A stretch of DNA of 64,000 nucleotides from an uncultured Flavobacteriaceae bacterium (GCA_964475595.1 CAYYXG010000014.1:1326-65325), one strand, 5' to 3'. Shown: positions 13,631-47,411, counted from the stretch's first letter. Made by a program: numbers and translations. The notes: generated by a model from the letters alone, not told the origin.

Positions 13631-13640
13631 CTTATCTACA

Positions 13641-26526: not shown

Positions 26527-27370
26527 TAACATTTCTTTGCCACATCCGGTTTTAAGATCTAACTATGATGATATTGCAAGTAGGATTGCTTTAGATCCAC
26601 CTCCAAACATTACCGAAAGCAACAATACCTATTATATTACTGTTACGTGTGAGCATGATAATTCTGATTTACATGAATTGATTAAATCCGAAAAGGCTGA
26701 ATATTATTGTGAAGTCACATGTTCCCATACTCTATACAGGAGCTTTGTAACATCTCAAGATAAAACACTATTCATCGAAATTCCCAAAAAACACCTAAAA
26801 GGCAAAGTTGAATTCTCATGCGCATTATTAGCAAAATCATCGTTTTCAGAATATCAAAACAGCAATGCTCATCATGATTATACAGGTTTCCGTTTTGAAA
26901 TCGAATCGGGAGATATATTGGCGTTTTTCGGTAAATTTACTTTCAATGCTGATATCAGATATGAAAAACTAAAAGCAGTATCTTCCTTTATGGAAGTAGT
27001 GGCAAATGAGGATAATAATGTTATTTATACAAATGTTAATTTGAACAAAAATAAAATCGAAGTACAATTGCCTATAGAAGATTACAATCTATTTGCAAAC
27101 GACAGCATATCTAAAGAACCAAAATTTGCATCCGTCTTTCACTCATCAATTGTATTGAATGCACTGTTGATTGCTTTGTATAAAATTGAACATTTCGAGG
27201 ATAAATTGTGGGCTAAAACCATTGAATACCGACTTAATGAAGAAAATATCTCTTTAGATGAAGACAACATTCCTGAAATTGCCCAAAAGCTTTTGGGAAA
27301 TCCTTATAAAAGACTTATAGAAGATCTTCACAATATTACAGTTAATCAACATTCAAGCATCAACGAATAG
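26516..27370 (+). CDS. hypothetical protein (operon partner of GHKL ATPase)
   Basis: 284 aa. Start overlaps the ATPase stop by 11 nt. Confidence 0.5.
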   Translation: MNFNNISLPHPVLRSNYDDIASRIALDPPPNITESNNTYYITVTCEHDNSDLHELIKSEKAEYYCEVTCSHTLYRSFVTSQDKTLFIEIPKKHLKGKVEFSCALLAKSSFSEYQNSNAHHDYTGFRFEIESGDILAFFGKFTFNADIRYEKLKAVSSFMEVVANEDNNVIYTNVNLNKNKIEVQLPIEDYNLFANDSISKEPKFASVFHSSIVLNALLIALYKIEHFEDKLWAKTIEYRLNEENISLDEDNIPEIAQKLLGNPYKRLIEDLHNITVNQHSSINE

Positions 27371-27374
27371 CACT

Positions 27375-28097
27375 ATGAATAAACAACTTGTTTTTAGAGA
27401 AAAATACCTTCAAAAACTTAGGGAAGAGATCAATGTTGAAAGATACCAAAGCAGTGAATTTGTATACGACAGGAAACAAACCCTTATGATGGCCAACATA
27501 ATCCAACCCCTGGATTTGGTTGGAAAACTTAACCACAAAGACGATTTTATTTCCGCTATAGCTATTTATGAAGCATATAAAAATCTAGAACCTATTCAGG
27601 CTTCCGATGAACGTTTCTGGGGCTATTTGGCACATGTTGATTTATATCAATACATGATTAAACGATGGCCAAAAGTGATTAACATAGAAGAAAGCAATCC
27701 GATAAAATATATTAGGGACCACTGGTTTATGGGCACTACATCACAAGGGAACCTCATGCGTCATTCACTGGCAGGACTATGGTGGTCGGTGCATTTAACA
27801 GTTGACGAACAAAGGACAAACAAATATGAATTGACTGAAGTTCTATTCAGTAATCAAACACTTAGAACAAGAACACTCGGTAATTACAGGTTATTTAGAC
27901 ATAAAGAAGCTGTAATTGGTTTGCTTGAATTTTGTAAAGAAAACAAATCTATTTTGAAGAACTTTGATAAGCAGCACCAACAATTAACAGAGCATTTGAA
28001 TTTAATTGGAGGGGTGAAATTTCTAGCTTACCGAGATAGAGATTTCTTTAAATTAGAGCTACTTAAGATACTACCCTTATTGAATAAGAGTAGTTAA
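27375..28097 (+). CDS. hypothetical protein (operon partner of GHKL ATPase)
   Basis: 240 aa. Begins 4 nt after the previous stop. Confidence 0.5.
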   Translation: MNKQLVFREKYLQKLREEINVERYQSSEFVYDRKQTLMMANIIQPLDLVGKLNHKDDFISAIAIYEAYKNLEPIQASDERFWGYLAHVDLYQYMIKRWPKVINIEESNPIKYIRDHWFMGTTSQGNLMRHSLAGLWWSVHLTVDEQRTNKYELTEVLFSNQTLRTRTLGNYRLFRHKEAVIGLLEFCKENKSILKNFDKQHQQLTEHLNLIGGVKFLAYRDRDFFKLELLKILPLLNKSS

Positions 28098-32273: not shown

Positions 32274-33161
32274 TCATACTTTAACGAATTCGTAGTTAAG
32301 CTTACGGATAATTTTTTTTCTTGCGCCAAGATAGTCACGATTATTGACAAAAGTGGCTATATCGGTTTTGTAATAATTGGGATATATTATATTTATTAAC
32401 GCAGCATGCTGTTTTAAAAAGTGCCATATTTTCCCACTACTATATTTGCAAATAATAGGTTCGGATTTTACAAACCCCAGGCTGTCCAGGAACATAAAAT
32501 CGATTAGGTGTTCGTCAGAAGGGTTATTCATCAGAACGAAATCTTTGAAATTTCTGCAGCGTATAGGTTTGGAAGATTTGACATCGTCCGTAAATGTCTG
32601 CCAGGAGGAGCGATCAATTTTGTTGATATCAATGTCAGGCATGGTTATTTGCGTCTGCCCCAGATAGCGCAGAAATGTCACATCCGAATCGCTTCTCCAT
32701 GTTGTCATTTCAAAGTTCCACTGAAACTGCTTGAGAAAATTGCCTGTTAGGGTATTAACGGCATTGCGCAAAAGCAAGGATGTGTCAAATTCAAAACCCA
32801 GATGACCCAATCGCTCGACCTCGTTAATGATGTTATCCAGTGGTGTAAAAAAAGAGCGTAACAAAGGCCTCAGGGGTATTTCCACCATAGTCTGTTTAGC
32901 CAGAATGGATTCCTTTACCACCGGATTTGTACTTAAACAGGCGAAGGGCAGAATCTCATAGAAAACACAAAAAAGCTTTAACAAATCCGATTTCTCTTCT
33001 TCGCTGTCAAACGATTCATGGCCCTTATTGGACATAAATTCTTTCAAACGCGTGATATCGGCAAAAACACTGTCAGCATTGTCAAGCAACATGCGCTCTG
33101 CCAGACTGACTTTCTCTCTATAATTAGCCATCATTCGCTGCATTTCAGATTCGTTTGTCAT
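32274..33161 (-). CDS. hypothetical protein (integrase-module gene)
   Basis: 295 aa. Stop overlaps the integrase gene region (4-nt overlap with the int stop side). Confidence 0.45.
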   Translation of the reverse strand: MTNESEMQRMMANYREKVSLAERMLLDNADSVFADITRLKEFMSNKGHESFDSEEEKSDLLKLFCVFYEILPFACLSTNPVVKESILAKQTMVEIPLRPLLRSFFTPLDNIINEVERLGHLGFEFDTSLLLRNAVNTLTGNFLKQFQWNFEMTTWRSDSDVTFLRYLGQTQITMPDIDINKIDRSSWQTFTDDVKSSKPIRCRNFKDFVLMNNPSDEHLIDFMFLDSLGFVKSEPIICKYSSGKIWHFLKQHAALINIIYPNYYKTDIATFVNNRDYLGARKKIIRKLNYEFVKV

Positions 33162-34399
33162 GCGCTTAGTATTAGGGATTCTACTTCACGTAGCTTTTTC
33201 AGCATCGTCATATTTGAAATATTGCGAGAGTATCGCGCAGACATAGAGTTGTTGGCATGCCCCATTATTTTATCTTTGATAATATCAGAGCCGTCGGTGC
33301 CCGCATTGCTTATAGAACTGCTAAGGGTATGACGTGATAGGTGAAAGGTCAAAGGCTCCTCATGCCAGTTTATCATCTCCTGCAGCTCCTTCAGCTTTTT
33401 ATTGGTTTTTTGGTTGGAAACCGTCGGCAGCAGCCGGTCAAGCCCAGCCGTCAATGGATGGTCTTTGTATTTATTGATAATATCCAATGCACTGCCAACC
33501 AATGGGATTCTGTTAGCGACTTTCTTATTGGAAGCCATGGTTATTTCTTCACTGCGTAAAAGCACGTAAGCATCAATTTGTTCATCAAAGTACATGTTTT
33601 TCGGGGATATTTTCCTGCTGTAGCTAAATCTTAATCCCGTAAAACAGCAAAACAAAAAACAATCCCGGGTTATCTCAAGTTCGGGCCGGTTTGAGAGGTC
33701 TAATTGCATGAGCTTTTTGACATAGTAATAGTCTAAACCCGACCGTTCGCTTACCTCTTTCTTTATACGATGCCCCATAAACGGATTCCTGTTTATCACC
33801 TCTTGCTGATAGGCATATATAAAAATCGCTTTTATCTTGGTGAGGTATTTATGGATGGTATTTGTCTTAAACGGCTTGCTGTGCACACCATATTTCTTGT
33901 TTTGCAGAAATACCTCAAAGTCCCGCAGGTTAGCCTGTTTGAAGTCTGCCAATAGCATGTCAGGGCATTTGTTTTTAATCAGAAACTCTTCCAGATAACC
34001 TACGGCCACTTCAGCTTGCCTTATGATCACTTTTTCTCCCTCTTCGCCCTTCCTTTTGTTGATGTAATAGCGGGCATATTCCAATATGGTGTATTCGGTT
34101 TTGTGATTATTCAGCAGTATTTGTTTCAGTGTAGCTGCTGTAAGCGTTTTATTGCTATTTTGGTAGTTTAGCCTAATGTTCAGGATACTATTCTCAATCT
34201 GGATCAGGCCATCATTCACCTGGCTGTGTTTTGTACGGCAGCGTTGCAACGCTTCATCCCAATCCTCGGGAGCACATTTAAACCCCGTGGCAAATTCGCT
34301 TTTTTTGCGGTTGATGATGACCCTGCCGTAAATGGCATGTTGCTTGGTTGACTGGAGTTCTCTCAAGTAGAATTTTGTAATAATTTTGATTTGTTTCAT
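33158..34399 (-). CDS. tyrosine-type site-specific recombinase/integrase
   Basis: 413 aa. C-terminal catalytic region LSRHTLSSSISNAGTDGSDIIKDKIMGHANNSMSARYSR (H-x-x-R ... Y) and an N-terminal SAM-like domain. ~320 bp from ssrA. Confidence 0.8.
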   Translation of the reverse strand: MKQIKIITKFYLRELQSTKQHAIYGRVIINRKKSEFATGFKCAPEDWDEALQRCRTKHSQVNDGLIQIENSILNIRLNYQNSNKTLTAATLKQILLNNHKTEYTILEYARYYINKRKGEEGEKVIIRQAEVAVGYLEEFLIKNKCPDMLLADFKQANLRDFEVFLQNKKYGVHSKPFKTNTIHKYLTKIKAIFIYAYQQEVINRNPFMGHRIKKEVSERSGLDYYYVKKLMQLDLSNRPELEITRDCFLFCCFTGLRFSYSRKISPKNMYFDEQIDAYVLLRSEEITMASNKKVANRIPLVGSALDIINKYKDHPLTAGLDRLLPTVSNQKTNKKLKELQEMINWHEEPLTFHLSRHTLSSSISNAGTDGSDIIKDKIMGHANNSMSARYSRNISNMTMLKKLREVESLILSA

Positions 34400-34684: not shown

Positions 34685-34719
34685 TCAAAGGAATACGAAA
34701 AATTCCGAAAACTAATCAG

Positions 34720-35086
34720 TGGAGCTGGAGGGAATCGAACCCTCGTCCAGAGATGCGACTACTGGCGCTTTCTACATGTTTATTTCTGTTTGTTGTCGGG
34801 ATGGGGCGGGTACAGAAATAACCTTACTCCATCCTTATCCGGCGTGTTAATGGCTCACCTGGCCGGTGTGAGTGACCATACCTGTGTTCGTCGATTGCTC
34901 CGTTTCGTCAGTTACACAGACAAAAGCGACGGGAGCAACACGCAATGCTAATTACTCCGAATTAGGCAGCGAGGGCGTAGTTATTTTCGCCTCTTATGGT
35001 TTTGAACATTGAGATTTAAGTGCCTACATCCAAAGCACTACATGCTTACACCGCAACCAATCATCCTGTCAAGTCCGGTCAGCCCC
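34720..35086 (-). ncRNA. ssrA: tmRNA (transfer-messenger RNA)
   Basis: On the minus strand: 5' GGGGCTGACCGGACTTGACAGG... An internal ORF GGC GAA AAT AAC TAC GCC CTC GCT GCC TAA encodes GENNYALAA*. 3' tRNA-like GGGTTCGATTCCCTCCAGCTCCA. Confidence 0.85.
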
Positions 35087-37047: not shown

Positions 37048-37464
37048 ATGAAATACAGCTACTTACTGCTTATTTGTCTGCTTGGTTCCGGCGTTTTTGC
37101 CGCTTGTAACAAGGACGGTAAATCCACTGACTTAACGAGGGCCGAAATGCTCAGGTCAGATGGTTCCAAGACATGGCAACTGGAAAAAATGTATGTCAGC
37201 GATACCCTGTATATCTTATCTGAAGAGGAGCTTGCTTATAACATAACGTACAAATCCGACAATACTTTTGTGGATTCTGATGGCATGGGGGGTACGTATC
37301 AGTTCGATGAAGGAGCCAACAAAATCACTGAAACCATCACTACCGGCGGAACCGGAAAACTTGTTTACAACGTAGAAGCATTATCTGCGGGCAATTTGGT
37401 ATTGCGTCTGATTGACGATGGATCCGGAAATCCAAACGTACAAATTCATTATCGTGCGAAATAA
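37048..37464 (+). CDS. lipoprotein
   Basis: LLLICLLGSGVFAAC lipobox. Confidence 0.5.
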   Translation: MKYSYLLLICLLGSGVFAACNKDGKSTDLTRAEMLRSDGSKTWQLEKMYVSDTLYILSEEELAYNITYKSDNTFVDSDGMGGTYQFDEGANKITETITTGGTGKLVYNVEALSAGNLVLRLIDDGSGNPNVQIHYRAK

Positions 37465-37951
37465 TATCATACTTATCGGGCTGCTGCTTTCAACCTTCAC
37501 GGCTGTTAAAGCCCAGACACTGGTGTTTGGCGGGTTTGCTTCATTTGCCATATCAGACAGCGCGAGTGCCAACTCGGGTGGCGCCATTGTGTGGCAAGAC
37601 AGCCGAACACGATGCATCATGGTTCAGGGTGGCCACATATACGGGCAATCAGAACTGTATAATGCTGCCGGCAATTTCAGGGAAAACTGCATAGAAACGC
37701 CTGAGGTATCGGATTTGCGCCTGTATCCCAACCCGGGTTTTGGTCAATACTGGCTGGAAGGTTCCGGAATCAGCGGGTTAGAAATTTACGACAATACCGG
37801 TCGCTTTATCAGCAGTCAGCATGTGGTGTTGTCAGAAAATCAGCGCATAAACATTTCTCTTGCGGGCCAATCTGAAGGTAATTATTTTGTAAAGGTTACC
37901 GGAGCAGAGGGTTTGAACCGTGTTTTTTCTATCATTAAACTGAAATCATAA
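37412..37951 (+). CDS. secreted protein with T9SS C-terminal sorting domain
   Basis: C-terminus LYPNPGFGQYW...GNYFVKVTGAEG...IIKLKS resembles a type A Por-secretion tail. Start uncertain (overlaps previous gene). Confidence 0.45.
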   Translation: MTMDPEIQTYKFIIVRNNIILIGLLLSTFTAVKAQTLVFGGFASFAISDSASANSGGAIVWQDSRTRCIMVQGGHIYGQSELYNAAGNFRENCIETPEVSDLRLYPNPGFGQYWLEGSGISGLEIYDNTGRFISSQHVVLSENQRINISLAGQSEGNYFVKVTGAEGLNRVFSIIKLKS

Positions 37952-37987: not shown

Positions 37988-39022
37988 ATGATAAAAATTG
38001 CCTTAAATCTTTACAATTTTTTAAATGTTAATGTAGTATTACATACCCCTGCATTGAATGTTAATGCAATTAGACTATGGGGGGCAAATTGGCAGAATGT
38101 TTATAATCATTATAGTTCTTACTTATTAAATATTCAAGCACCTAATTCAGCAGGGCCAATTGAAAAGCATCCATATATTGATCTTTATTCGGCTGATTGT
38201 AACTTTCAGAGGGAAACATTATTATTGGGAACTTTTCCGCCATCATCTTATATTAACAATTTGCCAGTACAAAACTTACCGAATCCTAATGTTCAAAATA
38301 ATAATCCAACTCATTATTTTTATGGTAATATGAATGATTTGTGGTTTTACTTATTTGGACTTAATGGTAGGGCATTAACAATCCAAACTATTCAAGAAGC
38401 ATTAATTGCGAATGATATATCTATTTCTGACGTTTTTGCTTATGTGCAAAGAAAAACAATGATTAGTGCTTTTGATAGCGAATATAAAAACATTGTTTTA
38501 AATTGTAATTTAAGAGAAATTTTCAACCTAGAATCGAAGATTAATACAATTCTTTTTACAAGTGGCAGTTTAAGCTCATTTTTAACCAATACAACATCTG
38601 CCTTAACAGGATTTCGGTGGATATTAGAAGATTGTTGTAACGGACTAAATAATTTCACGATTAGTGGAGATGTTAATGGGAATGGTCCATATTATCCAAT
38701 TAATATGAATGGAGTTCGAAATGCAGTAAATCAGCAAAAAGATGGAATAGTTTGGTGGTTAAAATGTGGAGCAAAAAAAATCAGAATTATAAACTTGCCG
38801 AGTCCTGCACCAATGGCAGCGCAAAGAATGATTAATAGTCCTTTCTTCAAAAAATGGATTAATTACAAGGCAAAGGAAAATGGAATTCCACCACTAGTTT
38901 TTGGAGCAAATTTAAAGCAACATTTAAATTTATATCCTAGAATATTTAATGAGCCATTCACAAAGCAATATAGAAGAGAGACATATCAAATGGTTTTAAA
39001 TAATACAATTCATCTTGTTTAA
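37988..39022 (+). CDS. AT-rich gene encoding a protein with a UDG-superfamily (family-6/hypoxanthine-DNA-glycosylase-like) core
   Basis: LLLGTFPPSSY...HYFYGNMNDLWFYLFGL resembles the LILGSFPS...YYA.P.N.FW motif pair of HDG/MUG-type glycosylases. ~33% GC in ~50% GC surroundings. About twice the size of canonical family members. Confidence 0.35.
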   Translation: MIKIALNLYNFLNVNVVLHTPALNVNAIRLWGANWQNVYNHYSSYLLNIQAPNSAGPIEKHPYIDLYSADCNFQRETLLLGTFPPSSYINNLPVQNLPNPNVQNNNPTHYFYGNMNDLWFYLFGLNGRALTIQTIQEALIANDISISDVFAYVQRKTMISAFDSEYKNIVLNCNLREIFNLESKINTILFTSGSLSSFLTNTTSALTGFRWILEDCCNGLNNFTISGDVNGNGPYYPINMNGVRNAVNQQKDGIVWWLKCGAKKIRIINLPSPAPMAAQRMINSPFFKKWINYKAKENGIPPLVFGANLKQHLNLYPRIFNEPFTKQYRRETYQMVLNNTIHLV

Positions 39023-39116: not shown

Positions 39117-39500
39117 ATGAGAAATGTGCTAATAATTCCCCTCTTTTTGATGTTTGGGTGCATGGTCTCCGAATCCAATGCGCAAAATCTTCAATTTAGC
39201 AAGGCCAAGCTGGTTTCTTCTACTGCCGATACAGTTCCTACGGGCCGGGTATGGAAAATAGAGAGTTTTCTGTTTAGCCGCAATCTTTCTACCTATCCCA
39301 ATTTGGCCTGGGGGGAAGACGATAAAATTGAGGTAAATGGCGATGTGTTTGTAGTTCGCGCATACCGAACGGATGCCGGCAACAGGCGCTATTTTGTTTG
39401 GAAACAGGATTTACCCATCTGGCTACCTGCCGGCTCTGTGGTGAAAGCGGATGTAGGGGTAAAACACATCAGTATTATCGAATTTAAAGAGGTACCGTAA
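39117..39500 (+). CDS. small secreted paralog S0 (divergent member of array family)
   Basis: Start moved to the internal M. Signal peptide ...SESNA-QNLQF. Conserved DTVPTGRVWKIESF and WLPAGS...IIEFKEVP. Confidence 0.55.
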   Translation: MRNVLIIPLFLMFGCMVSESNAQNLQFSKAKLVSSTADTVPTGRVWKIESFLFSRNLSTYPNLAWGEDDKIEVNGDVFVVRAYRTDAGNRRYFVWKQDLPIWLPAGSVVKADVGVKHISIIEFKEVP

Positions 39501-39528
39501 TTAAAAACACCAATAAAACACCAATAAA

Positions 39529-40827
39529 ATGAAAAGAATAATACCATTTTTTGTGCTCTTTTGGCTTGTGGGAGCCCAAAATGTAAAGGCACAGACAACA
39601 TCGCCTAACGGAATGATTTACCAGGCGGTAGCCAGGGATGGAAGTGGCAATCTGGCTGCCAAACGCAGCATCTTGGTGCAAACCACCATTCACAAGGGCA
39701 GTGCCACCGGAACCGTCATGTACCGCGATGAACACAAGGTGAACAGCAATGCCGACGCCATGTTTACGGTTATTGTGGGTCAGGGCACATTTTTGTCCGG
39801 ACTGCATAAAAAGATTGTGGACATTCCGTGGGGCAGCGACAAATACTTCTTCAACCTGAAAATATGCGTTACCCCTTCCATTCCTCGTTGGGGCTGGAAA
39901 CCTGTTTACACAGACATGGGTACCACACAATTTTGGAGCGTTCCTTATGCCCTGTCTTCAGGCAGCAGCGCAGATTCGCTTCAACTGACGGTGGTTGGAA
40001 ATAACAGGATGCTGAAGCTGGGCGGTTATCAGCCCATTTTATTCTCTGTTTCGGATGGTGACAGTGTTGCAACCAATGAAATTCAAAAGCTGACCCGCAC
40101 CGGCGGTCGCTTGCTGCTGAGTTTGAATGGCGGTATGGTAAGTCTTCCCGATTCCAGTGCGGTAAATGAATTGCAGAGCATCATCAGAACCGGTGGCAGA
40201 ATATCTTTGAGCATGGGAGGAGGGGTAATCACCCTTCCGGATAGCAGCTCTACCAATGAATTGCAAACACTTTCACGCATTGGAGGGAGAGTTATCCTCA
40301 ACCAGGGAGGAGGCGTAATCAACTTACCCGATAGCAGTGCTACAAATGAGCTGCAGGTGTTGACCAAAAAAGACGATCAGATAACCTTGAGCAATGGCGG
40401 TGGAACCGTCACCGATGCGGATTCACAGACCCTGGCCATCGATACCAATAAACTGGAGCGCACCATACGCATCAGCAAGGGCAATAAGGTGAGTTTTGAT
40501 GTGGCAGATGGCGATACAACGCACTGGAAGCAGGCCAAAACCACTACTTATTACAACAAAGGCAGCGTTGGGATTGGAACTTCAGCCGTAGATTCAACCG
40601 CAGCGTTTCAGGTGAACTCTACTACCCAAGGCGTGCTGTTTCCCCGAATGACGGAGGCACAGCGTTTGTTGATTAGCAAACCGGCTACGGGCTTGCTGGT
40701 TTTCCAAACGGATAAAACCGGCGGTTTCTACTATTATGAAGGTACGGCCTGGATACGCCTCAGTTCGGGAAGTGGCAGTGGCGGGGGCAGCAGCAACACC
40801 CTCATTTACACTACCCAAGGATTTTAA
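39529..40827 (+). CDS. large secreted repeat protein L1 (NELQ-repeat family)
   Basis: 432 aa. Signal peptide. N-terminal domain shared with L2. Four ~20-aa repeats (LPDSS..NELQ...GGRI.L..GGG). C-terminus GVLFPRMTEAQR...GLLVFQTD...YYYEGTAWI. Confidence 0.65.
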   Translation: MKRIIPFFVLFWLVGAQNVKAQTTSPNGMIYQAVARDGSGNLAAKRSILVQTTIHKGSATGTVMYRDEHKVNSNADAMFTVIVGQGTFLSGLHKKIVDIPWGSDKYFFNLKICVTPSIPRWGWKPVYTDMGTTQFWSVPYALSSGSSADSLQLTVVGNNRMLKLGGYQPILFSVSDGDSVATNEIQKLTRTGGRLLLSLNGGMVSLPDSSAVNELQSIIRTGGRISLSMGGGVITLPDSSSTNELQTLSRIGGRVILNQGGGVINLPDSSATNELQVLTKKDDQITLSNGGGTVTDADSQTLAIDTNKLERTIRISKGNKVSFDVADGDTTHWKQAKTTTYYNKGSVGIGTSAVDSTAAFQVNSTTQGVLFPRMTEAQRLLISKPATGLLVFQTDKTGGFYYYEGTAWIRLSSGSGSGGGSSNTLIYTTQGF

Positions 40828-40841
40828 AGCGATCGTATAGC

Positions 40842-41258
40842 ATGATGGCTAAGCTTTATATCTTTGGGTTGCTTTTCTTTTCTTTTAACGGACTGTCAGC
40901 CCAGAATTTACAATTTGGAACCACCAAGCTGATAGATAGCAAATCCGATACTGTACCTGCAGGAAAGATATGGAAGATAGAATGCTTTGTATATTCACAG
41001 CCCATAGCACAATGCCCAAACAGCGGTGCTCCCAAAGTAAATATTTCTGATTCTATTATCTTGAATGGGAAACCCATGATGGTGAGAGCCCAGCGTTTCT
41101 CAGCGATGTATGAGAATACCTGGGATGATTATGGCTGGAATACTGAATTTTTTCTGTGGGAACAAAAAACCCCGATGTGGCTACCTGCAGGTAGCACCCT
41201 GTCAGTTGGAAGTGGTGTACGATACATCAGTGTGTTAGAGTTTAAGGAATCGCCCTAA
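40842..41258 (+). CDS. small secreted paralog S1
   Basis: 138 aa. Family consensus AQNLQFGKTKLIDSK.DTVP.GK.WKIESFVYS...CP...VNISDSI.LNG....VRAQRF...PEF..WEQKTPMWLPAGTTLAAGRGV.YISVLEFKE.P. Confidence 0.65.
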   Translation: MMAKLYIFGLLFFSFNGLSAQNLQFGTTKLIDSKSDTVPAGKIWKIECFVYSQPIAQCPNSGAPKVNISDSIILNGKPMMVRAQRFSAMYENTWDDYGWNTEFFLWEQKTPMWLPAGSTLSVGSGVRYISVLEFKESP

Positions 41259-41731
41259 TGCAAAAGCCAGCCATAAAAGCAGTATTGCAAAGCAGATGGA
41301 CAGAAAAGGATACTGTCAAAAATAGTATCAGGGGGTTGATATGCTTTTTGTTATTCATGACAGCCGGTGGATTAAGTGCTCAGAACCTGGAATTTGTGGA
41401 TGCCCGCATGGTGGATTCAAAAACCGATACGGTACCTACTGGCAGGATCTGGAAGGTGGAGAGCATTGTGTATTCGCAGGGAGTTACCCATTGCCCTACC
41501 AGCAGCAATTACATTAACATTTCCGATTCAATCATGTTAGACGGTAAAGGGACCATGGTGAGGGCGCAGCGTTTCTCGGGTTTGCATCCGGGTTGGAGTT
41601 CACAAGCGTTTTCTCCGGAATTTATCGTGTGGGAACAAAAATTGCCCATGTGGCTTCCCTCCGGAACAACGGTGGCTGCGGGTCGTGGGGTAATGTACCT
41701 CAGTGTGCTGGAATTTAAGAAAACCCCTTGA
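41258..41731 (+). CDS. small secreted paralog S2
   Basis: Family consensus. Start shares a nucleotide with the previous stop. Confidence 0.6.
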   Translation: MQKPAIKAVLQSRWTEKDTVKNSIRGLICFLLFMTAGGLSAQNLEFVDARMVDSKTDTVPTGRIWKVESIVYSQGVTHCPTSSNYINISDSIMLDGKGTMVRAQRFSGLHPGWSSQAFSPEFIVWEQKLPMWLPSGTTVAAGRGVMYLSVLEFKKTP

Positions 41732-41737
41732 TGCAAA

Positions 41738-42181
41738 ATGAATAAACCGATGAGAAATAGTATACTGATATTGCTCAAATCCTCCCTGCTACTGGGATTG
41801 TTGGTTGTAAGCCAAAATCTTGTCGCACAGAATCTTCAATTTGGCAAAACCAAGTTAATTGGCAGCAAAACCGATACTGTGCCCACAGGAAAGGTTTGGA
41901 AATTAGAGTCCATTATCTACAAGCAAGGCATTGTGCCTTGCCCCACCAGTGGTGTATCTATAGATATTTCCGATTCCATCGCGCTGGACGGAACCAAATT
42001 AATGGTGCGGGCTCAGCGTTTTTCGGGATTATATGAAAATATCAACTATCGTTATGCCCATGCTCCTGAATTTTTGGTATGGGAACAAAAGCTGCCCATG
42101 TGGTTGCCGGCGGGCACTACGCTAGCGGCAGGTCGTGGTGTTTTTTACCTCAGTGTTTTGGAGTTTAATGAAACCCCTTAA
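41738..42181 (+). CDS. small secreted paralog S3
   Basis: Family consensus. Confidence 0.65.
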   Translation: MNKPMRNSILILLKSSLLLGLLVVSQNLVAQNLQFGKTKLIGSKTDTVPTGKVWKLESIIYKQGIVPCPTSGVSIDISDSIALDGTKLMVRAQRFSGLYENINYRYAHAPEFLVWEQKLPMWLPAGTTLAAGRGVFYLSVLEFNETP

Positions 42182-42187
42182 AGTACT

Positions 42188-42607
42188 ATGCATACAAAAA
42201 TAAAATTAATTACCGTCTTGTTACTGGTGCTGTCAGGTATGCCCTTGAACGCGCAAAACCTGCAGTTTGGGAAAACCAAGCTCATCGACAGTAAAACTGA
42301 TACCGTGCCTAATGGGAAAATATGGAAGATTGAGAGCTTCGTATATTCCAAGACCCTTGCCGACTGCCCGGGCAGCGGTGCAACAGTTAATATTTCGGAC
42401 TCGATTGTGCTGAATGGCAATAAGCTATCGGTGCGGGCACAGCGCTTTGCAGGGCTGGTTGATTGGCGTAACTGGAACACATCACCCTCACCGGAGTTTC
42501 TGGTATGGGAGCAAAAAACGCCCATGTGGCTTCCTGCGGGGACAACGCTTGCGGCAGGTCGTGGTGTGTTGTATATTAGTATATTAGAGTTTAAAGATGT
42601 TCCATAA
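42188..42607 (+). CDS. small secreted paralog S4
   Basis: Family consensus. Confidence 0.65.
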   Translation: MHTKIKLITVLLLVLSGMPLNAQNLQFGKTKLIDSKTDTVPNGKIWKIESFVYSKTLADCPGSGATVNISDSIVLNGNKLSVRAQRFAGLVDWRNWNTSPSPEFLVWEQKTPMWLPAGTTLAAGRGVLYISILEFKDVP

Positions 42608-43064
42608 TATGGTTATGGTTGAATATATCGGGACTGTACACCGTTTTATGCTCTTTTTTAGGTATATGATCATGTTGTTGGTTCTAGGCATGGGCACCCG
42701 TTTATCTGCCCAAAACCTGCAATTCGGAAGAACCAAGCTCATCGACAGTAAGACGGACACGGTTCCGGTTGGTAAAATATGGAAGATAGAAAATTTTACC
42801 TACAGTAAAAGTCTGGCAAATTGCCCAACTGGTGGATCTGTGGTGAATATTACAGATTCCATTGTGTTGAACGGCAACAAAATGGCGGTGCGGGCGCAGC
42901 GATTTTCAGGGGTAGATGACCTTAGGCCTTGGGGTACCTCGCTTGCACCTGAATATTTGTTATGGGAGCAAAGAACCCCCTTGTGGTTACCGGCAGGAAC
43001 TACATTGGCAGCAGGTAGGGGTGTGCTGTATATCAGTGTATTGGAATTTAAAGAGTCGCCATAA
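42597..43064 (+). CDS. small secreted paralog S5
   Basis: Family consensus. The true start may be a downstream Met. Confidence 0.6.
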   Translation: MFHNMVMVEYIGTVHRFMLFFRYMIMLLVLGMGTRLSAQNLQFGRTKLIDSKTDTVPVGKIWKIENFTYSKSLANCPTGGSVVNITDSIVLNGNKMAVRAQRFSGVDDLRPWGTSLAPEYLLWEQRTPLWLPAGTTLAAGRGVLYISVLEFKESP

Positions 43065-43079
43065 TCACAGAATTTACGC

Positions 43080-43490
43080 ATGATGAAAAAACATATATTT
43101 TGCAGTTTGTTAATGATGGTCTTTGCCATGGGGTTGTATTCTCAAAACCTCCAGTATGGGAAATCCAAGTTGATTGACAGCAAGGTGGATACTGTTCCTG
43201 CAGGCAGGGCCTGGAAGCTGGAGGGATTCGTCTTTACGAATAGCATAGCTAACTGTCCCAGCAGTTCAACCGAGGTAAATATTACTGATTCTATTCTCTT
43301 GAATGGAAATAATTTTGCGGTGAGGGCCCAGCGATTTTTCGGACCTACTTACACTTCACGTGGTTCTACCGCTCCTACATATTTAATATGGAAGCAGGAA
43401 ACACCACTTTGGTTGCCTGCAGGCACTACGCTGGCAGCAGGCCGTGGTGTGAGTTATATCAATATAATAGAATTTAACGAGTCGCCATAA
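43080..43490 (+). CDS. small secreted paralog S6
   Basis: Family consensus. 5' ~150 bp nearly identical to S7. Confidence 0.65.
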   Translation: MMKKHIFCSLLMMVFAMGLYSQNLQYGKSKLIDSKVDTVPAGRAWKLEGFVFTNSIANCPSSSTEVNITDSILLNGNNFAVRAQRFFGPTYTSRGSTAPTYLIWKQETPLWLPAGTTLAAGRGVSYINIIEFNESP

Positions 43491-43505
43491 TCACAGAATG
43501 TACGC

Positions 43506-43916
43506 ATGATGAAAAAACATATATTATGCAGTTTGTTAATGATGGTCTTTGCCATGGGGTTGTATTCTCAAAACCTCCAGTATGGGAAATCCAAGTTGAT
43601 TGACAGCAAGGTGGATACTGTTCCTTCAGGTAGGGCCTGGAAGGTTGAAGGGTTTATTTTTTCCAATACCATGGCCAACTGTCCCGGCAGCTATTCTGTT
43701 GTCAATATTGATGATTCTATCGTACTAAATGGTCACAGAATGGCCGTGAGGACACAGCGTATGTACGGACCGTCATCCAATTCTTGGGGAGCCATTTCAC
43801 CACAATACATACTTTGGCAGCAGACAACGCCCATGTGGCTACCGGCAGGGGCCACGCTGTCGGCGGGCCGAGGCGTGAAATTTATTAATGTGATTGAGTT
43901 TAAAGAGGTACCATAA
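43506..43916 (+). CDS. small secreted paralog S7
   Basis: Family consensus. 5' ~150 bp nearly identical to S6. Confidence 0.65.
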   Translation: MMKKHILCSLLMMVFAMGLYSQNLQYGKSKLIDSKVDTVPSGRAWKVEGFIFSNTMANCPGSYSVVNIDDSIVLNGHRMAVRTQRMYGPSSNSWGAISPQYILWQQTTPMWLPAGATLSAGRGVKFINVIEFKEVP

Positions 43917-43924
43917 TTCCAGAA

Positions 43925-44350
43925 ATGAAGATGTTGCGTTTAATAGCTGTTTTTTTTATTTATGTATGCGTTGTTAAGGTGCATGCGCAAAATTTGCAGT
44001 TTGGCAAGTCTAAGCTGATAGACAGTAAAAGGGATACAGTGCCTTCCGGCAAGGTATGGAAGATAGAGAGTTTTGTATATAAGCTGCCTCCGGCAAATTG
44101 TCCTACCGGTAGCACCGCCATTAATATTACAGATTCAATTGTACTGAATGGAAACAAAATAGGGGTAAGGGCACAGCGATTTACAGGAACGGTAACCTAT
44201 CAGGCGGGCAGTCAAGGGGTAGCAGCTACTTCGCCCAATTTGGTAATTTGGGAGCAAAAAACGCCCATGTGGATTCCTGCCGGAACTACGTTGTCGGCAG
44301 CAGGTGGGGTGTTGTATATCAATGTATTGGAGTTTAATGAAACCCCTTAA
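43925..44350 (+). CDS. small secreted paralog S8
   Basis: Family consensus. Confidence 0.65.
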   Translation: MKMLRLIAVFFIYVCVVKVHAQNLQFGKSKLIDSKRDTVPSGKVWKIESFVYKLPPANCPTGSTAINITDSIVLNGNKIGVRAQRFTGTVTYQAGSQGVAATSPNLVIWEQKTPMWIPAGTTLSAAGGVLYINVLEFNETP

Positions 44351-44789
44351 ATGTAAAGATTCCGTGAAAAATAGCTATTTATTAATCGTCATCCTGGCCA
44401 CGTTTGGTTATACTCATCAGGTGGGTGCACAAAACCTGCAGTTTGGCAAGTCTAAACTGATAGATAGTAAGACAGATACGGTACCTGTTGGTAAGGTATG
44501 GAAGGTTGAAAGCTTTATGTTCTCTAAAGCCATTACCGATTGTCCTACCAATACCACGCCAGTCAACATTACCGACTCTATTGTGTTGAATGGAAATAAG
44601 ATGCCTGTTAGGGCTCAGCGCTTTGTTGGTACCATCGTTAATTATTATGTAAATGCCACTGCCGCTTCCTCCCCTGAGTTTATCATTTGGGAACAAAAGA
44701 CCCCGATGTGGTTACCTGCCAAAACAACCTTGTCGGCGGGTAGGGGTGTTTTGTATATCAATGTATTAGAATTTAATGAAACACCCTAG
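44337..44789 (+). CDS. small secreted paralog S9
   Basis: Family consensus. Start trimmed to MKPLKCKDSV.... Confidence 0.6.
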   Translation: MKPLKCKDSVKNSYLLIVILATFGYTHQVGAQNLQFGKSKLIDSKTDTVPVGKVWKVESFMFSKAITDCPTNTTPVNITDSIVLNGNKMPVRAQRFVGTIVNYYVNATAASSPEFIIWEQKTPMWLPAKTTLSAGRGVLYINVLEFNETP

Positions 44790-45228
44790 TATTCAAAAAC
44801 ATAAAAGGCCAATGCATCAATATTTAAAGTCTGTAATGCTCATGTTGATAGGTTGTCAAGCCGGAATATTATCTGCTCAAAACCTTCAATTTGGGCTTAC
44901 AAAGCTGGTAGGAAGCAAGCAGGATACTGTACCTACCGGAAAAATATGGAAGATAGAGAGTTTTGTTTATTCCAGAACACTGGCCGATTGTCCCGGAGGT
45001 TCTACATCCATAAATTTATCTGATTCTATTGTGCTAAATGGTTTTAATACTGCGGTGCGTGCACAGCGGTTTGCAGGTCTTTGGAATCCGTGGAGATCGG
45101 ATACATACGGTCCGGAATTTTTTCTTTGGGAACAAAAAACACCCATGTGGCTGCCTTCCGGTACAACCCTTGCCGCAGGAACCGGTGTCAGGTATATCAG
45201 CATACTGGAATTTAAAGAAACACCATAA
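44776..45228 (+). CDS. small secreted paralog S10
   Basis: Family consensus. Confidence 0.6.
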   Translation: MKHPSIQKHKRPMHQYLKSVMLMLIGCQAGILSAQNLQFGLTKLVGSKQDTVPTGKIWKIESFVYSRTLADCPGGSTSINLSDSIVLNGFNTAVRAQRFAGLWNPWRSDTYGPEFFLWEQKTPMWLPSGTTLAAGTGVRYISILEFKETP

Positions 45229-45252
45229 AAAAGCAAAGAATAAACAAATAAT

Positions 45253-45681
45253 ATGCAAAAAATATCGTGCTTCACCATACTGCTCTTGATATTGATATGT
45301 CAAAAACTGATTGCCCAGAATCTTCAATTCGGGAAGTCTCGGCTGGTAAGCAGCAGGACCGATACGGTTCCGACCGGTATGGTATGGAAAATTGAGAGTT
45401 TTGTATATTCAAGGCCTGTAGCAGATTGTCCTGCGGGCACAACACCGGTTAACATATCGGACTCAATTGTTATTAACGGCAATAAGCTGATGGTGAGGGC
45501 ACAGCGTTTCTCGGCCCAGAACGCTAGTTACCAGTGGAGTCATGGCTTTGGAGTCTCATGGTCACCGGAGTACATCATTTGGGAGCAGAAAACACCCATG
45601 TGGCTACCGGCTGCCACTACCATTGCCGCCGGCAGCGGTGTTTTGTATATCAGTGTGCTGGAGTTTAAAGAGACCCCCTAA
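45253..45681 (+). CDS. small secreted paralog S11
   Basis: Family consensus. Confidence 0.65.
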   Translation: MQKISCFTILLLILICQKLIAQNLQFGKSRLVSSRTDTVPTGMVWKIESFVYSRPVADCPAGTTPVNISDSIVINGNKLMVRAQRFSAQNASYQWSHGFGVSWSPEYIIWEQKTPMWLPAATTIAAGSGVLYISVLEFKETP

Positions 45682-47411
45682 TGAAAATTACTGCTGGTAT
45701 GTTGTACGAAATTTTATTAGGCAGAAAGCCGGTTGTCCTATTATGGGCTTTATTGTTCATGGCTATCTGCTATTGCACCGGGGTAACAGCTCAGACTGCA
45801 CCCAACGGCATGTTGTATCAGGCCGTGGCCAGGGATGGAAGTGGCAACCTGGCAGCGAAACGCAGCATACTGGTGCAGACCACCATATTAAAAAGCACAG
45901 CCACAGGAACCGTGATGTATAAGGATGAACACAAGGTGATGAGTAACGCCGATGCCATGTTCACCGTGGTGGTAGGTCAGGGCAAGTACCTATCCGGGAC
46001 GTACAAAAAAATCACGGATATCCCCTGGGGCAGCGATAAGTATTTTTTCAACCTAAAGATATGTGTAATGCCTTCAATACCGCGTTGGGGATGGAAACCG
46101 GTTTACACAGACATGGGTACGACACAGTTTTGGAGTGTGCCTTATGCCTTGTCATCGGGCAGTAGTTCAGACTCGCTGCAACTGACCGTGATTGGCAACA
46201 ACAGACAACTGAAACTGGGCAATTATAAACCTGTTTCGTTTTCTGTGTCGGATGGAGACAGTTTATCCACCAACGAACTTCAGAAACTTACCCGCGTGGG
46301 TGGTCGTTTGCTGCTGAGCCTGAATGGTGGAACATTATTTTTACCCGATAGCAGTTCTACCAATGAGCTGCAAAGCATTAGCAGAATTGGGGGAAGGATT
46401 ATACTGAATCAAGGTGGTGGTATGATCACAGTGCCGGATAGCAGCGCATCAAACGAGCTGCAAAGCATCAACCGAAACGGGGGCAGAATTATCCTCAGTC
46501 AAGGAGGGGGCATAATCTACTTGCCAGATAGCAGCGCAGTGAATGAGCTACAGGTTCTGACCAAAAAAGGCAATCAGATTTCCCTGAACAATGGGGGTGG
46601 AACCATCACAGATGCTGATTCTCAACAGCTTGTGGTAACTGCCAGCAACATGGACAGAACCTTAGAAATCACCAAAGGGAATTCAGTAACCTTTAGTGTG
46701 GCTGATGGCGACACAGCCAACTGGAAACAGAACAGTTTGGTAAGTTATTACCCAAAAGGGCCTGTGGCAATTGGGACATCCAAAGTAGATACTGCAGCGT
46801 TATTTCAGGTGAATTCAACCCAAAAAGGGGTGTTGTTTCCAAGGATGTCAAAGATACAGATGCAGGCAATTAAAAGCCCGTCTGCCGGTTTGCTGGTTTT
46901 CAACACAGATGATAATCTATTTTATTACTGGGAAGGGGCAAAATGGATTGCCTTGGTAAATGCAGGAACATCACCTTCAGCCGCCAAAGGCACTGTGGTA
47001 TTGTTGAATGCGGATGAATCTCAAAGTAGCAACATCAATGTCAATTACTCGCCCTGTGGCACCGGAACCAGCAGCGGAACCATCAAAACCTATTCCCTTG
47101 CGGCCAATACGTATAGCCGCATCATTGCTGAAGCAGAGGGTTACATGGAAATTGGGGCCAATGGGGGGTCATTCAATTATGGAGAGGTAACCATTGCCTT
47201 GCCCAGTGGTCCAAGCACCACAACCCAGGCGCGGCGAAGTGTAACCGGCGGGGGCACCGGCAATACGGGCTGGATTTTTCCGTTCAAGGTATCTGTTTCC
47301 GGGGCCAGCACAACGGCAGGAAACGTTGTTTTATCCGGGGTGCTCGGCCTCGGAGGCTGCACAGGAGGCAGAATTACGGTAACCTCCATGCGAGTGTATG
47401 GGGTTTATTAA
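45681..47411 (+). CDS. large secreted repeat protein L2 (NELQ-repeat family, with C-terminal extension)
   Basis: 576 aa. Collinear with L1 through the GVLFPRM...GLLVFNTD...YYWEGAKWI block, then ~170 extra Gly/Thr/Ser-rich residues. Confidence 0.65.
   Translation: MKITAGMLYEILLGRKPVVLLWALLFMAICYCTGVTAQTAPNGMLYQAVARDGSGNLAAKRSILVQTTILKSTATGTVMYKDEHKVMSNADAMFTVVVGQGKYLSGTYKKITDIPWGSDKYFFNLKICVMPSIPRWGWKPVYTDMGTTQFWSVPYALSSGSSSDSLQLTVIGNNRQLKLGNYKPVSFSVSDGDSLSTNELQKLTRVGGRLLLSLNGGTLFLPDSSSTNELQSISRIGGRIILNQGGGMITVPDSSASNELQSINRNGGRIILSQGGGIIYLPDSSAVNELQVLTKKGNQISLNNGGGTITDADSQQLVVTASNMDRTLEITKGNSVTFSVADGDTANWKQNSLVSYYPKGPVAIGTSKVDTAALFQVNSTQKGVLFPRMSKIQMQAIKSPSAGLLVFNTDDNLFYYWEGAKWIALVNAGTSPSAAKGTVVLLNADESQSSNINVNYSPCGTGTSSGTIKTYSLAANTYSRIIAEAEGYMEIGANGGSFNYGEVTIALPSGPSTTTQARRSVTGGGTGNTGWIFPFKVSVSGASTTAGNVVLSGVLGLGGCTGGRITVTSMRVYGVY

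What the first reader, a model, noticed from the sequence alone, without database searches (positions are those of the whole stretch)
39117..47411. Array of 13 diversified small secreted paralogs bracketed by two large NELQ-repeat secreted paralogs
The region contains thirteen co-directional genes for ~115-aa mature secreted proteins plus two large repeat proteins. The genes are contiguous or overlapping. Eleven small genes lie between the two large ones; one small gene precedes the first large one. The small proteins share a rigid scaffold: AQNLQFGKTKLIDSKTDTVP.GK.WKIESFVYS, a single CP cysteine, VNISDSIVLNG, VRAQRF, and WEQKTPMWLPAGTTLAAGRGVLYISVLEFKE.P. They differ almost exclusively in two short segments, before and after the Cys and between RAQRF and PEF. 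Conserved framework with hypervariable loops and a tandem family of this size suggests diversifying selection on a binding surface, as in adhesin tips, immunity or receptor-decoy families, or cognate partners of the large proteins. The two large proteins share an N-terminal domain, 20-aa LPDSS..NELQ..GGRI repeats and a C-terminal GVLFPRMT...GLLVFNTD...YY.EG..W block. Nothing in the array matches a family I can name.
Basis: seen in the sequence. Interest (0 to 1): 0.8.

Follow-up and report, generated by a model that had tools for sequence, protein, structure and literature searches.

The report
Fibre genes with separate tip-gene array
An uncultured freshwater Bacteroidota bacterium encodes two phage-tail-fibre-like surface fibres and 12 small secreted jelly-roll proteins that look like separately encoded, interchangeable binding tips for one of the fibres, an arrangement that is widespread in environmental Bacteroidota and that I could not find described.

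Summary
The array is real, with 12 small paralogs rather than 13, and the stalk repeat is 30 aa rather than 20.

**Small proteins.**
- They are Sec-exported and 105-121 aa when mature. The AF2 model is an 8-stranded jelly roll (pLDDT 90).
- They match no Pfam, NCBIfam or PHROG family.
- Variation sits in two loops: 31% identity there against 71% in the scaffold.
- The paralogs are ancient (synonymous sites saturated). Each has a 91-100% identical ortholog in related MAGs, and the loops are under purifying selection (omega 0.07-0.14). Ongoing diversifying selection is therefore not supported. Copy number does vary (7-14 between the two fibre genes).

**Large proteins.** They are chimeric fibres of the phage-tail-fibre / Bdellovibrio MAT type.

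**Key new result.** Large-1 ends in a Gly/Ser linker followed by NTLIYTTQGF.
- In 80 metagenome contigs chosen only by a DNA pattern for that tail, 73 of 77 testable are immediately followed by a small-family gene.
- Fibres with fused tips show no such array.
- One 731-aa fibre-like protein carries the small domain fused at its C-terminus.
- Elsewhere the conserved small-family segments are attached to glycine-rich tip domains.

**Best model (0.55).** A split fibre whose tail docks interchangeable tip modules. Docking, surface location and ligand are inferred, not shown.

The parts
37048..37464 (+). 138-aa lipoprotein-like protein (signal peptide ...VFAAC, weak lipocalin-like match). A conserved upstream partner of this fibre subfamily.
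   Evidence: Lipocalin_4, E 0.009. Homologs sit in the same position in the 7 close syntenic loci where that position lies within the contig, and in L082 and L083. L084 shows the same gene order.
37418..37951 (+). Small T9SS cargo: signal peptide, a passenger of about 65 aa, and a type-A C-terminal sorting domain. Candidate surface anchor or export partner of the fibres.
   Evidence: TIGR04183 at E 2.5e-9 and PF18962 at E 2.4e-6. A small Por_Secre_tail protein lies directly upstream of the fibre gene, or directly after the array, in many loci.
39117..39500 (+). Small paralog s1: divergent, no Cys, short loop B. It lies upstream of large-1.
   Evidence: Its ortholog is conserved in all syntenic loci (86-99% identity).
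39529..40827 (+). Large-1, a 432-aa fibre. Order of parts: signal peptide, N-terminal beta-sandwich, four 30-aa NELQ repeats, PTL_trimer block (GVLFPRMT...GLLVFQTD...YYYEG..W), G/S linker, C-terminal tail NTLIYTTQGF.
   Evidence: PF26696 is recorded on the corresponding 432-aa gene call in the same-strain contig L001. Tail analysis.
40842..41258 (+). Small paralog s2 (two Cys)
41258..41731 (+). Small paralog s3
41738..42181 (+). Small paralog s4
42188..42607 (+). Small paralog s5, the copy that was modelled: 8-stranded jelly roll, pLDDT 90.1.
42597..43064 (+). Small paralog s6
43080..43490 (+). Small paralog s7. Its signal peptide differs from that of s8 at one residue.
   Evidence: D8: 86% identity over 300 nt. 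(426-nt period).
43506..43916 (+). Small paralog s8. With s7 it forms the most recent duplicate pair.
43925..44350 (+). Small paralog s9
44304..44789 (+). Small paralog s10. The start is uncertain: ATG at 44322 or 44337 is likelier than GTG at 44304.
   Evidence: The gene call for the L005 ortholog is 155 aa.
44776..45228 (+). Small paralog s11
45253..45681 (+). Small paralog s12. It overlaps the large-2 start by 1 nt.
45681..47411 (+). Large-2, a 576-aa fibre. It has the same N-terminal domain, repeats and PTL_trimer block as large-1, but a fused 136-aa all-beta tip domain replaces the linker and tail.
   Evidence: AF2 gives N-terminal pLDDT 80-95 and tip pLDDT 70-87. The tip is rare: only P0309 and P0310 as further relatives, besides the close orthologs (P0054; syntenic loci). 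PDB matches are weak, to phage fibre and TNF-like folds.

Best explanation
This is a gene cluster for phage-tail-fibre-like cell-surface fibres whose binding tips are encoded as separate genes.

**Large-1.** A Sec-exported fibre with these parts in order:
- a conserved N-terminal beta-sandwich (base);
- four 30-aa NELQ beta-repeats (stalk);
- a PTL_trimer block;
- a flexible Gly/Ser linker;
- the C-terminal peptide NTLIYTTQGF.

**The 12 small genes.** They encode Sec-exported jelly-roll proteins of 105-121 aa.
- The conserved first two and last two or three strands (NLQF, TVPxGKxWKIE, PxWLPxG, LEFxxxP) form a common adaptor half.
- The two hypervariable loops differ between paralogs. [quoted passage not shown]

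**Proposed mechanism.** Each small protein docks non-covalently on the tail peptide, probably by beta-strand addition. A fibre trimer has three tethered tails, so it could display a mixture drawn from 12 binding heads. The likely ligands are glycans or surfaces of other cells or particles, because loop B is rich in Trp, Tyr, Asn, Ser and Thr.

**Large-2.** The same fibre with a fused tip in place of the tail.

**Upstream genes.** The adjacent small T9SS-cargo protein and lipoprotein probably serve in anchoring or export.

**Shown:** gene anatomy, predicted folds, family distribution, tail-to-array linkage, fusion architectures and the selection regime.
**Inferred:** physical docking, trimer stoichiometry, surface location and ligand class.
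For: 1. **Fibre nature of the large proteins.**
   - Relatives share the N-terminal domain but carry different stalks (NELQ repeats, collagen) and different C-termini: Peptidase_S74 chaperone, phage tail collar, Gly_rich_2 and Lcl_C.
   - There is a weak hit to the Bdellovibrio MAT N-terminal model.
   - The AF2 N-terminal domain is confident, and the repeats have a 30-residue beta periodicity.
2. **Tail-to-array linkage within the first loci.** In 77 loci (the window and fetched loci, redundant same-strain loci excluded) found through the small family, 41 of 41 ORFs ending in ..[LI][IV][YF]T..GF are directly followed by a small-family gene.
3. **Independent sample.** 80 metagenome contigs were selected only by the DNA pattern for TL[IVM]YTxDGF-stop. 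Of 77 testable, 73 have a small-family ORF (E<1e-3) within 500 nt downstream. One of the 4 'failures' (L090) is visibly a divergent member.
4. **The tail is the correlate, not the stalk or PTL_trimer.** Tails occur after collagen stalks, after PTL-only 155-aa proteins, and directly after the N-terminal domain.
5. **Fused versus split logic.**
   - P0259 (731 aa) has two small-family domains fused at its very C-terminus and ends IEFTP (hhalign 97.4%).
   - P0065 has Gly_rich_2 fused to the stalk and carries no PTL_trimer annotation or tail.
   - Tail-bearing P0060 and P0057 are followed by separate Gly_rich_2 proteins that carry the two conserved small-family segments in permuted order.
   - The fused-tip fibre P0072 has no downstream array. 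P0086 is followed only by one 166-aa gene whose family could not be checked, because no DNA was available.
6. **Conservation pattern.** Across 542 members only the N- and C-terminal segments are conserved and the whole middle is free to vary. P0233 and P0261 carry an insertion of about 120 aa in loop B.
7. **Each paralog is individually conserved.** Ortholog omega is 0.03-0.14, as expected for distinct maintained specificities.
Against: - No physical interaction was tested. Multimer modelling was not available.
- Neither the fibres nor the small proteins carry a recognisable T9SS C-terminal domain or any other outer-membrane export signal. Surface exposure is therefore assumed.
- Some arrays are divergently transcribed from the fibre genes, and s1 lies upstream of large-1.
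- The small fold is complete on its own (8 strands). A strand-addition site is therefore hypothetical.
- The Rosetta-stone evidence rests on one clear fusion protein (P0259) from a distant organism.
Confidence: 0.55

Rival explanations
1. The small proteins are free-standing secreted binding proteins (lectin-like or scavenging). They are co-regulated with the fibres but not attached to them. The conserved tail has another role, for example recognition by an export or anchoring factor.
For: - Every copy has its own signal peptide, and the predicted fold is complete on its own.
- Some arrays are transcribed divergently from the fibre genes.
- Small jelly-roll lectins exist: the TNF-like lectin PLTL appears among the weak matches of large-2.
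Against: - The tail-to-array adjacency of roughly 95-100% is hard to explain by co-regulation alone.
- The domain occurs fused to the C-terminus of a fibre (P0259).
- The conserved segments travel with unrelated payloads (Gly_rich_2) downstream of tail-bearing fibres.
Confidence: 0.2
2. The small proteins are polymerising subunits. They would extend the fibre into a filament by donor-strand or disulfide linkage, as in Bacteroidota type V pili or Bacillus Ena appendages, with the tail as the first donor strand.
For: - The mature N-terminus (QNLQF) and the extreme C-terminus (LEFxxxP) are strongly conserved.
- 11 of the 12 copies share one conserved Cys, in the CP motif (s2 has a second Cys).
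Against: - The Cys is not conserved in the wider family or in s1.
- There is no lipoprotein signal and no sign of an N-terminal propeptide cleaved during assembly, unlike type V pilins.
- A structural polymer does not explain 12-23 different subunits with hypervariable loops.
Confidence: 0.1
3. The small proteins are trans-acting assembly chaperones for fibre trimerisation, like phage tail-fibre assembly proteins.
For: - Phage fibres often have a small downstream assembly gene.
- Related fibres use a fused S74 chaperone instead.
Against: - A chaperone would not need 12-23 diversified copies, each under purifying selection.
- It would not be fused as the mature C-terminus of a fibre (P0259).
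- Family-wide, the variable part is the majority of the protein.
Confidence: 0.05
4. The small proteins are immunity or decoy proteins that neutralise the fibre, or a toxin it delivers, as in the orphan immunity arrays of polymorphic toxin loci.
For: Tandem arrays of small diversified genes downstream of a large secreted protein resemble CDI/Rhs loci (a general resemblance only).
Against: - No toxin domain was found in the large proteins.
- The C-terminus of the upstream protein is the most conserved part rather than the variable part.
- No orphan toxin tips are interleaved with the small genes.
Confidence: 0.05

Closest known systems
Bdellovibrio bacteriovorus MAT (mosaic adhesive trimer) chimeric fibres (PMC10769870)
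   Same: - Both are chromosomally encoded, signal-peptide-bearing, phage-tail-fibre-like fibres.
- Both have an invariant N-terminal domain, a variable beta-rich stalk, and swapped C-terminal tips. Relatives here include both S74-chaperone and non-S74 groups.
- There is weak sequence similarity to the MAT N-terminal model.
   Different: - The MAT N-terminal model scores far below its cutoff (26.9 against 60 bits).
- MAT tips are fused to the fibre and the genes are dispersed. Here the tips appear to be separate genes in arrays of 7-23, coupled to a conserved C-terminal tail peptide.
- The hosts are non-predatory-type freshwater and marine Bacteroidota with a T9SS-cargo partner gene.
T2/T6-type phage long tail fibre gp37 plus separate gp38 adhesin (PMC3157838)
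   Same: - Both are two-component fibre tips. A small, separately encoded adhesin attaches through a conserved attachment part to the distal end of the fibre.
- In both, the adhesin carries hypervariable segments set in a conserved core that determine specificity.
   Different: - No sequence or fold homology was detected.
- There is one adhesin gene per phage, against 12-23 per locus here.
- The context is a cellular chromosome: no relatives were found in 2.9 million viral contigs.
Pfam PF26696 PTL_trimer domain
   Same: The GVLFPRMT...GLLVFNTD...YY.G..W block of both large proteins carries this precomputed annotation in their orthologs.
   Different: - The model was not in the Pfam copy I could search, and I found no paper on it. 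Its function is unknown to me.
- It is not the correlate of the arrays. The tail peptide is.
Jelly-roll oligomeric heads and lectins (nucleoplasmin core, viral capsid jelly rolls, TNF/C1q-like lectins such as PLTL)
   Same: An eight-stranded beta-sandwich. [quoted passage not shown]

Membership tests
Bdellovibrio MAT fibre family (NCBIfam NF053851 Bdello_MAT_N) | N-terminal domain matching the family model above its curated cutoff | tested here: not met
   Large-2 scores E 3.6e-6 and 26.9 bits against a cutoff of 60. Large-1 has no hit. Relatives P0072 and P0086 are similarly weak.
Bdellovibrio MAT fibre family | Chimeric architecture: constant N-terminus, variable stalk, swapped C-terminal tip (S74 or other) | tested here: met
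   Homologs share the N-terminus but end in S74, collar, Gly_rich_2, Lcl_C, the large-2 tip, or the tail peptide.
Bdellovibrio MAT fibre family | Homotrimeric intertwined fibre on the cell surface | not testable with these tools
   Only monomer AF2 was available. Stalk pLDDT is 33-66.
Pfam PF26696 PTL_trimer | Match to the Pfam model | tested here: met
   A precomputed PF26696 hit is recorded on the corresponding 432-aa gene call in the same-strain contigs L001-L003, and on the 576-aa orthologs. I could not rerun it: the model is absent from the local Pfam copy.
T9SS cargo proteins | C-terminal sorting domain (type A TIGR04183/PF18962, type B, or type C) | tested here: not met
   There is no CTD hit for the small-family copies scanned (four: s1, s3 and s5 in Pfam and NCBIfam; s1 and s5 in PHROGs) or for either large protein. 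It is met only by the neighbouring gene 37418-37951. The 9-aa tail is far shorter than the shortest known CTDs of 40-55 aa (PMC11969387).
Phage gp38-type tail-fibre adhesins | Homologous N-terminal attachment domain and glycine-rich-motif/HVS specificity domain | tested here: not met
   The small proteins have no significant PHROG or Pfam match (s1 has only a marginal head-tail adaptor hit, E 0.0047) and no viral structural match. The relation is a functional analogy only.
Polymorphic-toxin immunity arrays | Variable C-terminal toxin domain on the upstream large protein, followed by a cognate immunity gene | tested here: not met
   No toxin domain is present. The upstream C-terminus is the most conserved element.
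Jelly-roll / TNF-C1q-like lectin heads | Significant structural match to a solved member | tested here: inconclusive

The most novel reading that the evidence does not exclude
Environmental Bacteroidota carry a widespread, undescribed 'plug-in' adhesin system.
- A short C-terminal docking peptide (..TLIYTxDGF) on a trimeric fibre captures any of 10-20 separately encoded modules through a shared adaptor half-domain.
- The modules include jelly rolls with hypervariable CD and EF loops, loop-inserted domains, and glycine-rich domains.
- One stalk could then display mixed heads, giving a combinatorial repertoire for recognising surfaces.
- Export may be piggy-backed on a small T9SS cargo protein.
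Probability: 0.4. Interest if true: 0.85.

Novelty: new variant of a known kind. Interest (0 to 1): 0.7.

Why it matters
- **Scale.** The small family has about 1,000 clusters at 50% identity. It forms arrays of up to 23 genes in freshwater, wastewater and marine Bacteroidota, and it has no annotation.
- **If the docking model holds.** It would be a bacterial counterpart of split phage receptor-binding fibres. It would give a simple genetic route, gain or loss of whole tip genes, for retuning what abundant uncultured particle- and bloom-associated bacteria stick to.
- **Possible tool.** The tail and adaptor pair would be a compact natural protein-tagging module.
- **Open question.** It would raise the problem of how proteins without a T9SS signal reach the surface in this phylum.
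- **Practical rule.** A gene ending in ..TLIYTxDGF predicts a downstream tip array. This can be used at once to annotate thousands of hypothetical proteins.

Tried and rejected
It is unusable because pS is about 0.77, which is saturated. I replaced it with ortholog comparisons.
2. **Small-family profile against PDB sequences.** It gave E 2e-8 to the designed propeller Tako8, through 6-7 repeated weak stretches. I rejected this as a repeat or composition artefact, because the confident AF2 model is a single 8-strand sandwich.
3. **Is the large-2 fused tip homologous to the small family?** hhalign found nothing (probability 0.2%). The third database search found only two further relatives of that tip.
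4. **Phage origin.** No relatives were found in the viral contigs, and there is no PHROG hit for the small proteins.
5. **Shufflon or invertible-element and recombinase mechanisms.** There are no meaningful inverted repeats in the array and no recombinase there. The integrase at 33158-34399 belongs to a separate island.
6. **Sigma-70 promoter and terminator scan.** Counts were no better than in shuffled sequence, and Bacteroidota promoters are not covered by the scan.
7. **Meaning of 'PTL_trimer'.** Literature searches found nothing.
8. **The tail as a T9SS signal.** Rejected on length and motifs.
9. **afdb50 fold search.** The library was unavailable.

Full report
**1. Checking the observation**

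The + strand between 39.1 and 47.4 kb carries a dense run of co-directional ORFs.
- Aligning them gives 12 small paralogs. A family HMM finds exactly 12 in the whole 64-kb window. One (39117-39500) precedes the first large gene and eleven lie between the two large genes. 'Thirteen' is a miscount.
- Gaps between genes run from about 47 nt of overlap (counting s10 from its uncertain GTG start) to 28 nt of spacing.
- Each small protein has a typical signal peptide ending ..A/S|QNLQF. Mature lengths are 105-121 aa.
- The two large proteins (432 and 576 aa) are 70% identical over 420 aa.
- Their repeat has a 90-nt (30-aa) period, not 20 aa.
- Large-2 has an extra C-terminal domain of 136 aa. Large-1 ends in SSGSGSGGGSS-NTLIYTTQGF.

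**2. How the variation is distributed and what selection it reflects**

- Among s2-s12, mean pairwise identity is 71% in the scaffold and 31% in two segments. In mature s5 numbering these are residues 32-44, around the CP motif, and 67-80, between RAQRF and PEF.
- Loop B is enriched in Trp and Tyr (12.8% against 6.0% in the scaffold) and in Asn, Ser, Thr and Gly.
- Synonymous differences between paralogs are saturated (pS about 0.77 in both loops and scaffold). The duplications are therefore old, and dN/dS between paralogs is meaningless.
- The exception is s7/s8. They share an 86%-identical 300-nt stretch that spans the end of the preceding gene and the 5' part of the gene itself.
- Every window paralog has a reciprocal-best ortholog of 91-100% identity in the closest syntenic metagenome contigs (81-97% in the more distant L007).
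- Pooled ortholog comparisons give omega 0.07-0.14 in the loops and 0.03-0.07 in the scaffold.
- The loops are thus maintained, not diversifying.
- Copy number between the two fibre genes differs among syntenic loci (7, 11, 12, 13, 14). The repertoire changes by gain and loss of whole genes.

**3. What the proteins are**

*Small proteins*
- They match nothing in Pfam, NCBIfam or PHROGs.
- AF2 with a 56-sequence alignment gives a confident (pLDDT 90.1) eight-stranded beta-sandwich.
[quoted passage not shown] I inferred this from strand order and did not check it on coordinates.

*Large proteins*
- Their relatives share the N-terminal domain but have other stalks (more NELQ repeats, collagen Gly-X-Y) and other C-termini: Peptidase_S74 chaperone, phage tail collar, Gly_rich_2 and Lcl_C.
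- This is the chimeric logic described for Bdellovibrio MAT fibres (PMC10769870). The N-terminal domain hits the MAT N-terminal model only weakly (26.9 bits against a cutoff of 60).
- The AF2 monomer model shows three things:
  - a confident N-terminal beta-sandwich;
  - a low-confidence stalk with 30-residue periodicity;
  - an 8-strand tip with pLDDT 70-87.
- PDB matches are weak: phage tail and baseplate fibres, Pgp3, and the TNF-like lectin PLTL, all at E >= 1.4e-3.
- The GVLFPRMT...GLLVFNTD block corresponds to the precomputed Pfam PF26696 'PTL_trimer'. I placed the domain there by comparing which homologs carry the annotation.

**4. Distribution**

- The small family is large and exclusively cellular. 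It has 1,024 50%-identity cluster representatives at E <= 1e-3, almost all stand-alone proteins of 112-160 aa.
- There are 182 tblastn relatives in GTDB species representatives. All listed loci are MAGs, labelled Flavobacteriales, Crocinitomicaceae, Cryomorphaceae, Chitinophagales, Saprospiraceae and others.
- None was found in 2.9 million viral contigs.
- Arrays reach 19 contiguous genes and 23 genes per locus.

**5. The key linkage**

- In the loci found through the small family, the gene just upstream of an array almost always ends in a Gly/Ser/Ala-rich linker plus ..TL[IV]YT.DGF, whatever the rest of the protein looks like.
- 41 of 41 ORFs with that ending are directly followed by a small-family gene.
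- The tail also occurs without PTL_trimer: after collagen, or straight after the N-terminal domain in a 162-aa ORF. The tail itself is therefore the correlate.
- Those loci were chosen through the small family, so I made an independent sample:
  - I scanned the metagenome collection with a degenerate DNA pattern for TL[IVM]YTxDGF-stop.
  - Of the 80 loci returned, 3 have too little downstream sequence.
  - 73 of the remaining 77 have a small-family ORF within 500 nt downstream.
  - One of the four 'misses' (L090) is a recognisable divergent member: QGNLQFNRV...KVWKV...PIWISSG...SIIEFNVVP.
- A second independent sample came from fibres found through the large-protein search:
  - Tail-bearing P0060, P0057 and P0095 are each followed by proteins with small-family segments.
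  - The fused-tip fibre P0072 has no downstream array. P0086 (Lcl_C tip) is followed only by one 166-aa gene, which I could not check because no DNA was available.

**6. Fusion and permutation evidence**

- P0259 (731 aa) is a fibre-like protein with two small-family domains at its very C-terminus, ending IEFTP (hhalign 97.4%, E 1e-11).
- Downstream of tail-bearing fibres in L082 and L084 lie proteins of 280-320 aa. In these, the conserved C-terminal segment (LPxWLxxG...SVLEF) comes first and the conserved N-terminal segment (L.F...VPxxKxWKIE) follows directly, after which comes a Gly_rich_2 domain.
- When Gly_rich_2 is fused directly to a stalk (P0065), neither the tail nor these segments are present.
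- Across 542 family members only these N- and C-terminal segments are conserved. P0233 and P0261 carry an insertion of about 120 aa in loop B.
- Together these results point to a conserved adaptor half (beta1-2 plus beta7-8, which pair with each other in a jelly roll) and a free payload half.

**7. Model**

- I read the locus as a split fibre: a stalk with a docking tail (large-1), a set of 12 alternative tip modules, and a sister fibre with a fused tip (large-2).
- The closest functional precedent is the separately encoded gp38 adhesin, which attaches to the tip of the T2/T6 long tail fibre and carries hypervariable segments in a conserved core (PMC3157838).
- The closest architectural precedent is the MAT fibre family.
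- Docking, stoichiometry, surface location and ligands are inferences.
- One unexplained point is export. The fibres and all small-family copies scanned lack a T9SS C-terminal domain. The tail is far shorter than the shortest known CTDs.
- A small T9SS-cargo gene (37418-37951 here) lies directly upstream of the fibre gene, or directly after the array, in many loci. It may provide the anchor or carrier.
- In the window's subfamily a lipocalin-like lipoprotein gene (37048-37464) accompanies it.

**8. Rivals and verdict**

- The rivals are free secreted lectins, polymerising subunits, assembly chaperones, and immunity or decoy proteins. Each is weighed under rival explanations.
- None accounts as well for three observations taken together:
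  - the near-obligate tail-to-array adjacency;
  - the fused and split architectures;
  - the adaptor segments travelling with unrelated payloads.
- I found no description of this system in the literature searched.
- I rate it a new variant of a known kind, namely chimeric fibres with a separately encoded tip. Confidence in the docking model is about 0.55 and interest is 0.7.

Noticed in passing
window 37988-39022: A 344-aa ORF with low G+C (the 38-40 kb bin is 38.6% against about 45% around it). It sits between the T9SS-cargo gene and s1. It is present only in this strain (L001-L003) and absent from the syntenic loci L005, L007, L009 and L010. It has no Pfam, NCBIfam, PHROG or PADLOC match.
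   Followed up: partly
window 1-34400 and tmRNA gene at 34719-35086: The left half of the window has low G+C (32-42%) and looks like a genomic island integrated next to the tmRNA gene. A tyrosine integrase lies at 33158-34399. The island carries an HpaII restriction enzyme (21491-22570) and a C5 methylase (22577-23848).
   Followed up: partly
window 24574-28097: Three genes match the PADLOC candidate defence system PDC-M33 A, B and C (E 3e-98, 3e-55 and 1e-33).
   Followed up: no
window 10781-19630 (- strand): Three large genes in a row: SrfB (E 1e-191), a 'Virul_Fac' SrfC-like gene (E 1e-106), and a 949-aa subtilase. They form an SrfABC-like module inside the island.
   Followed up: no
window 42945-43244 and 43371-43670: A direct repeat, 86% identical over 300 nt. 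It covers the 3' end of one small gene, the spacer, and the signal peptide and 5' part of the next (s7/s8). TRF reports a 426-nt period with 2.2 copies. It is the only young duplication in the array and hints that unequal crossing-over, offset from gene boundaries, drives copy-number change.
   Followed up: partly
window 39504-39529: A perfect 11-nt tandem repeat (AAAACACCAAT, 2.4 copies) in the 28-nt spacer just upstream of the large-1 start codon. It may be a translational or regulatory element, or a slippage site.
   Followed up: no
P0233, P0261 (database proteins): Small-family members of 253 and 268 aa with an insertion of about 120 aa at the position of hypervariable loop B. The loop can therefore host a whole extra domain.
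   Followed up: partly
L046, L047, L050, L057, L060 (Crocinitomicaceae-type loci): Fibre genes come in pairs. The first ends in a Peptidase_S74-like self-cleaving chaperone. The second has a collagen stalk and ends in the tail peptide. Small-gene arrays lie on both sides, one of them divergently transcribed, and a 175-aa T9SS-cargo gene closes the downstream array in related loci.
   Followed up: partly
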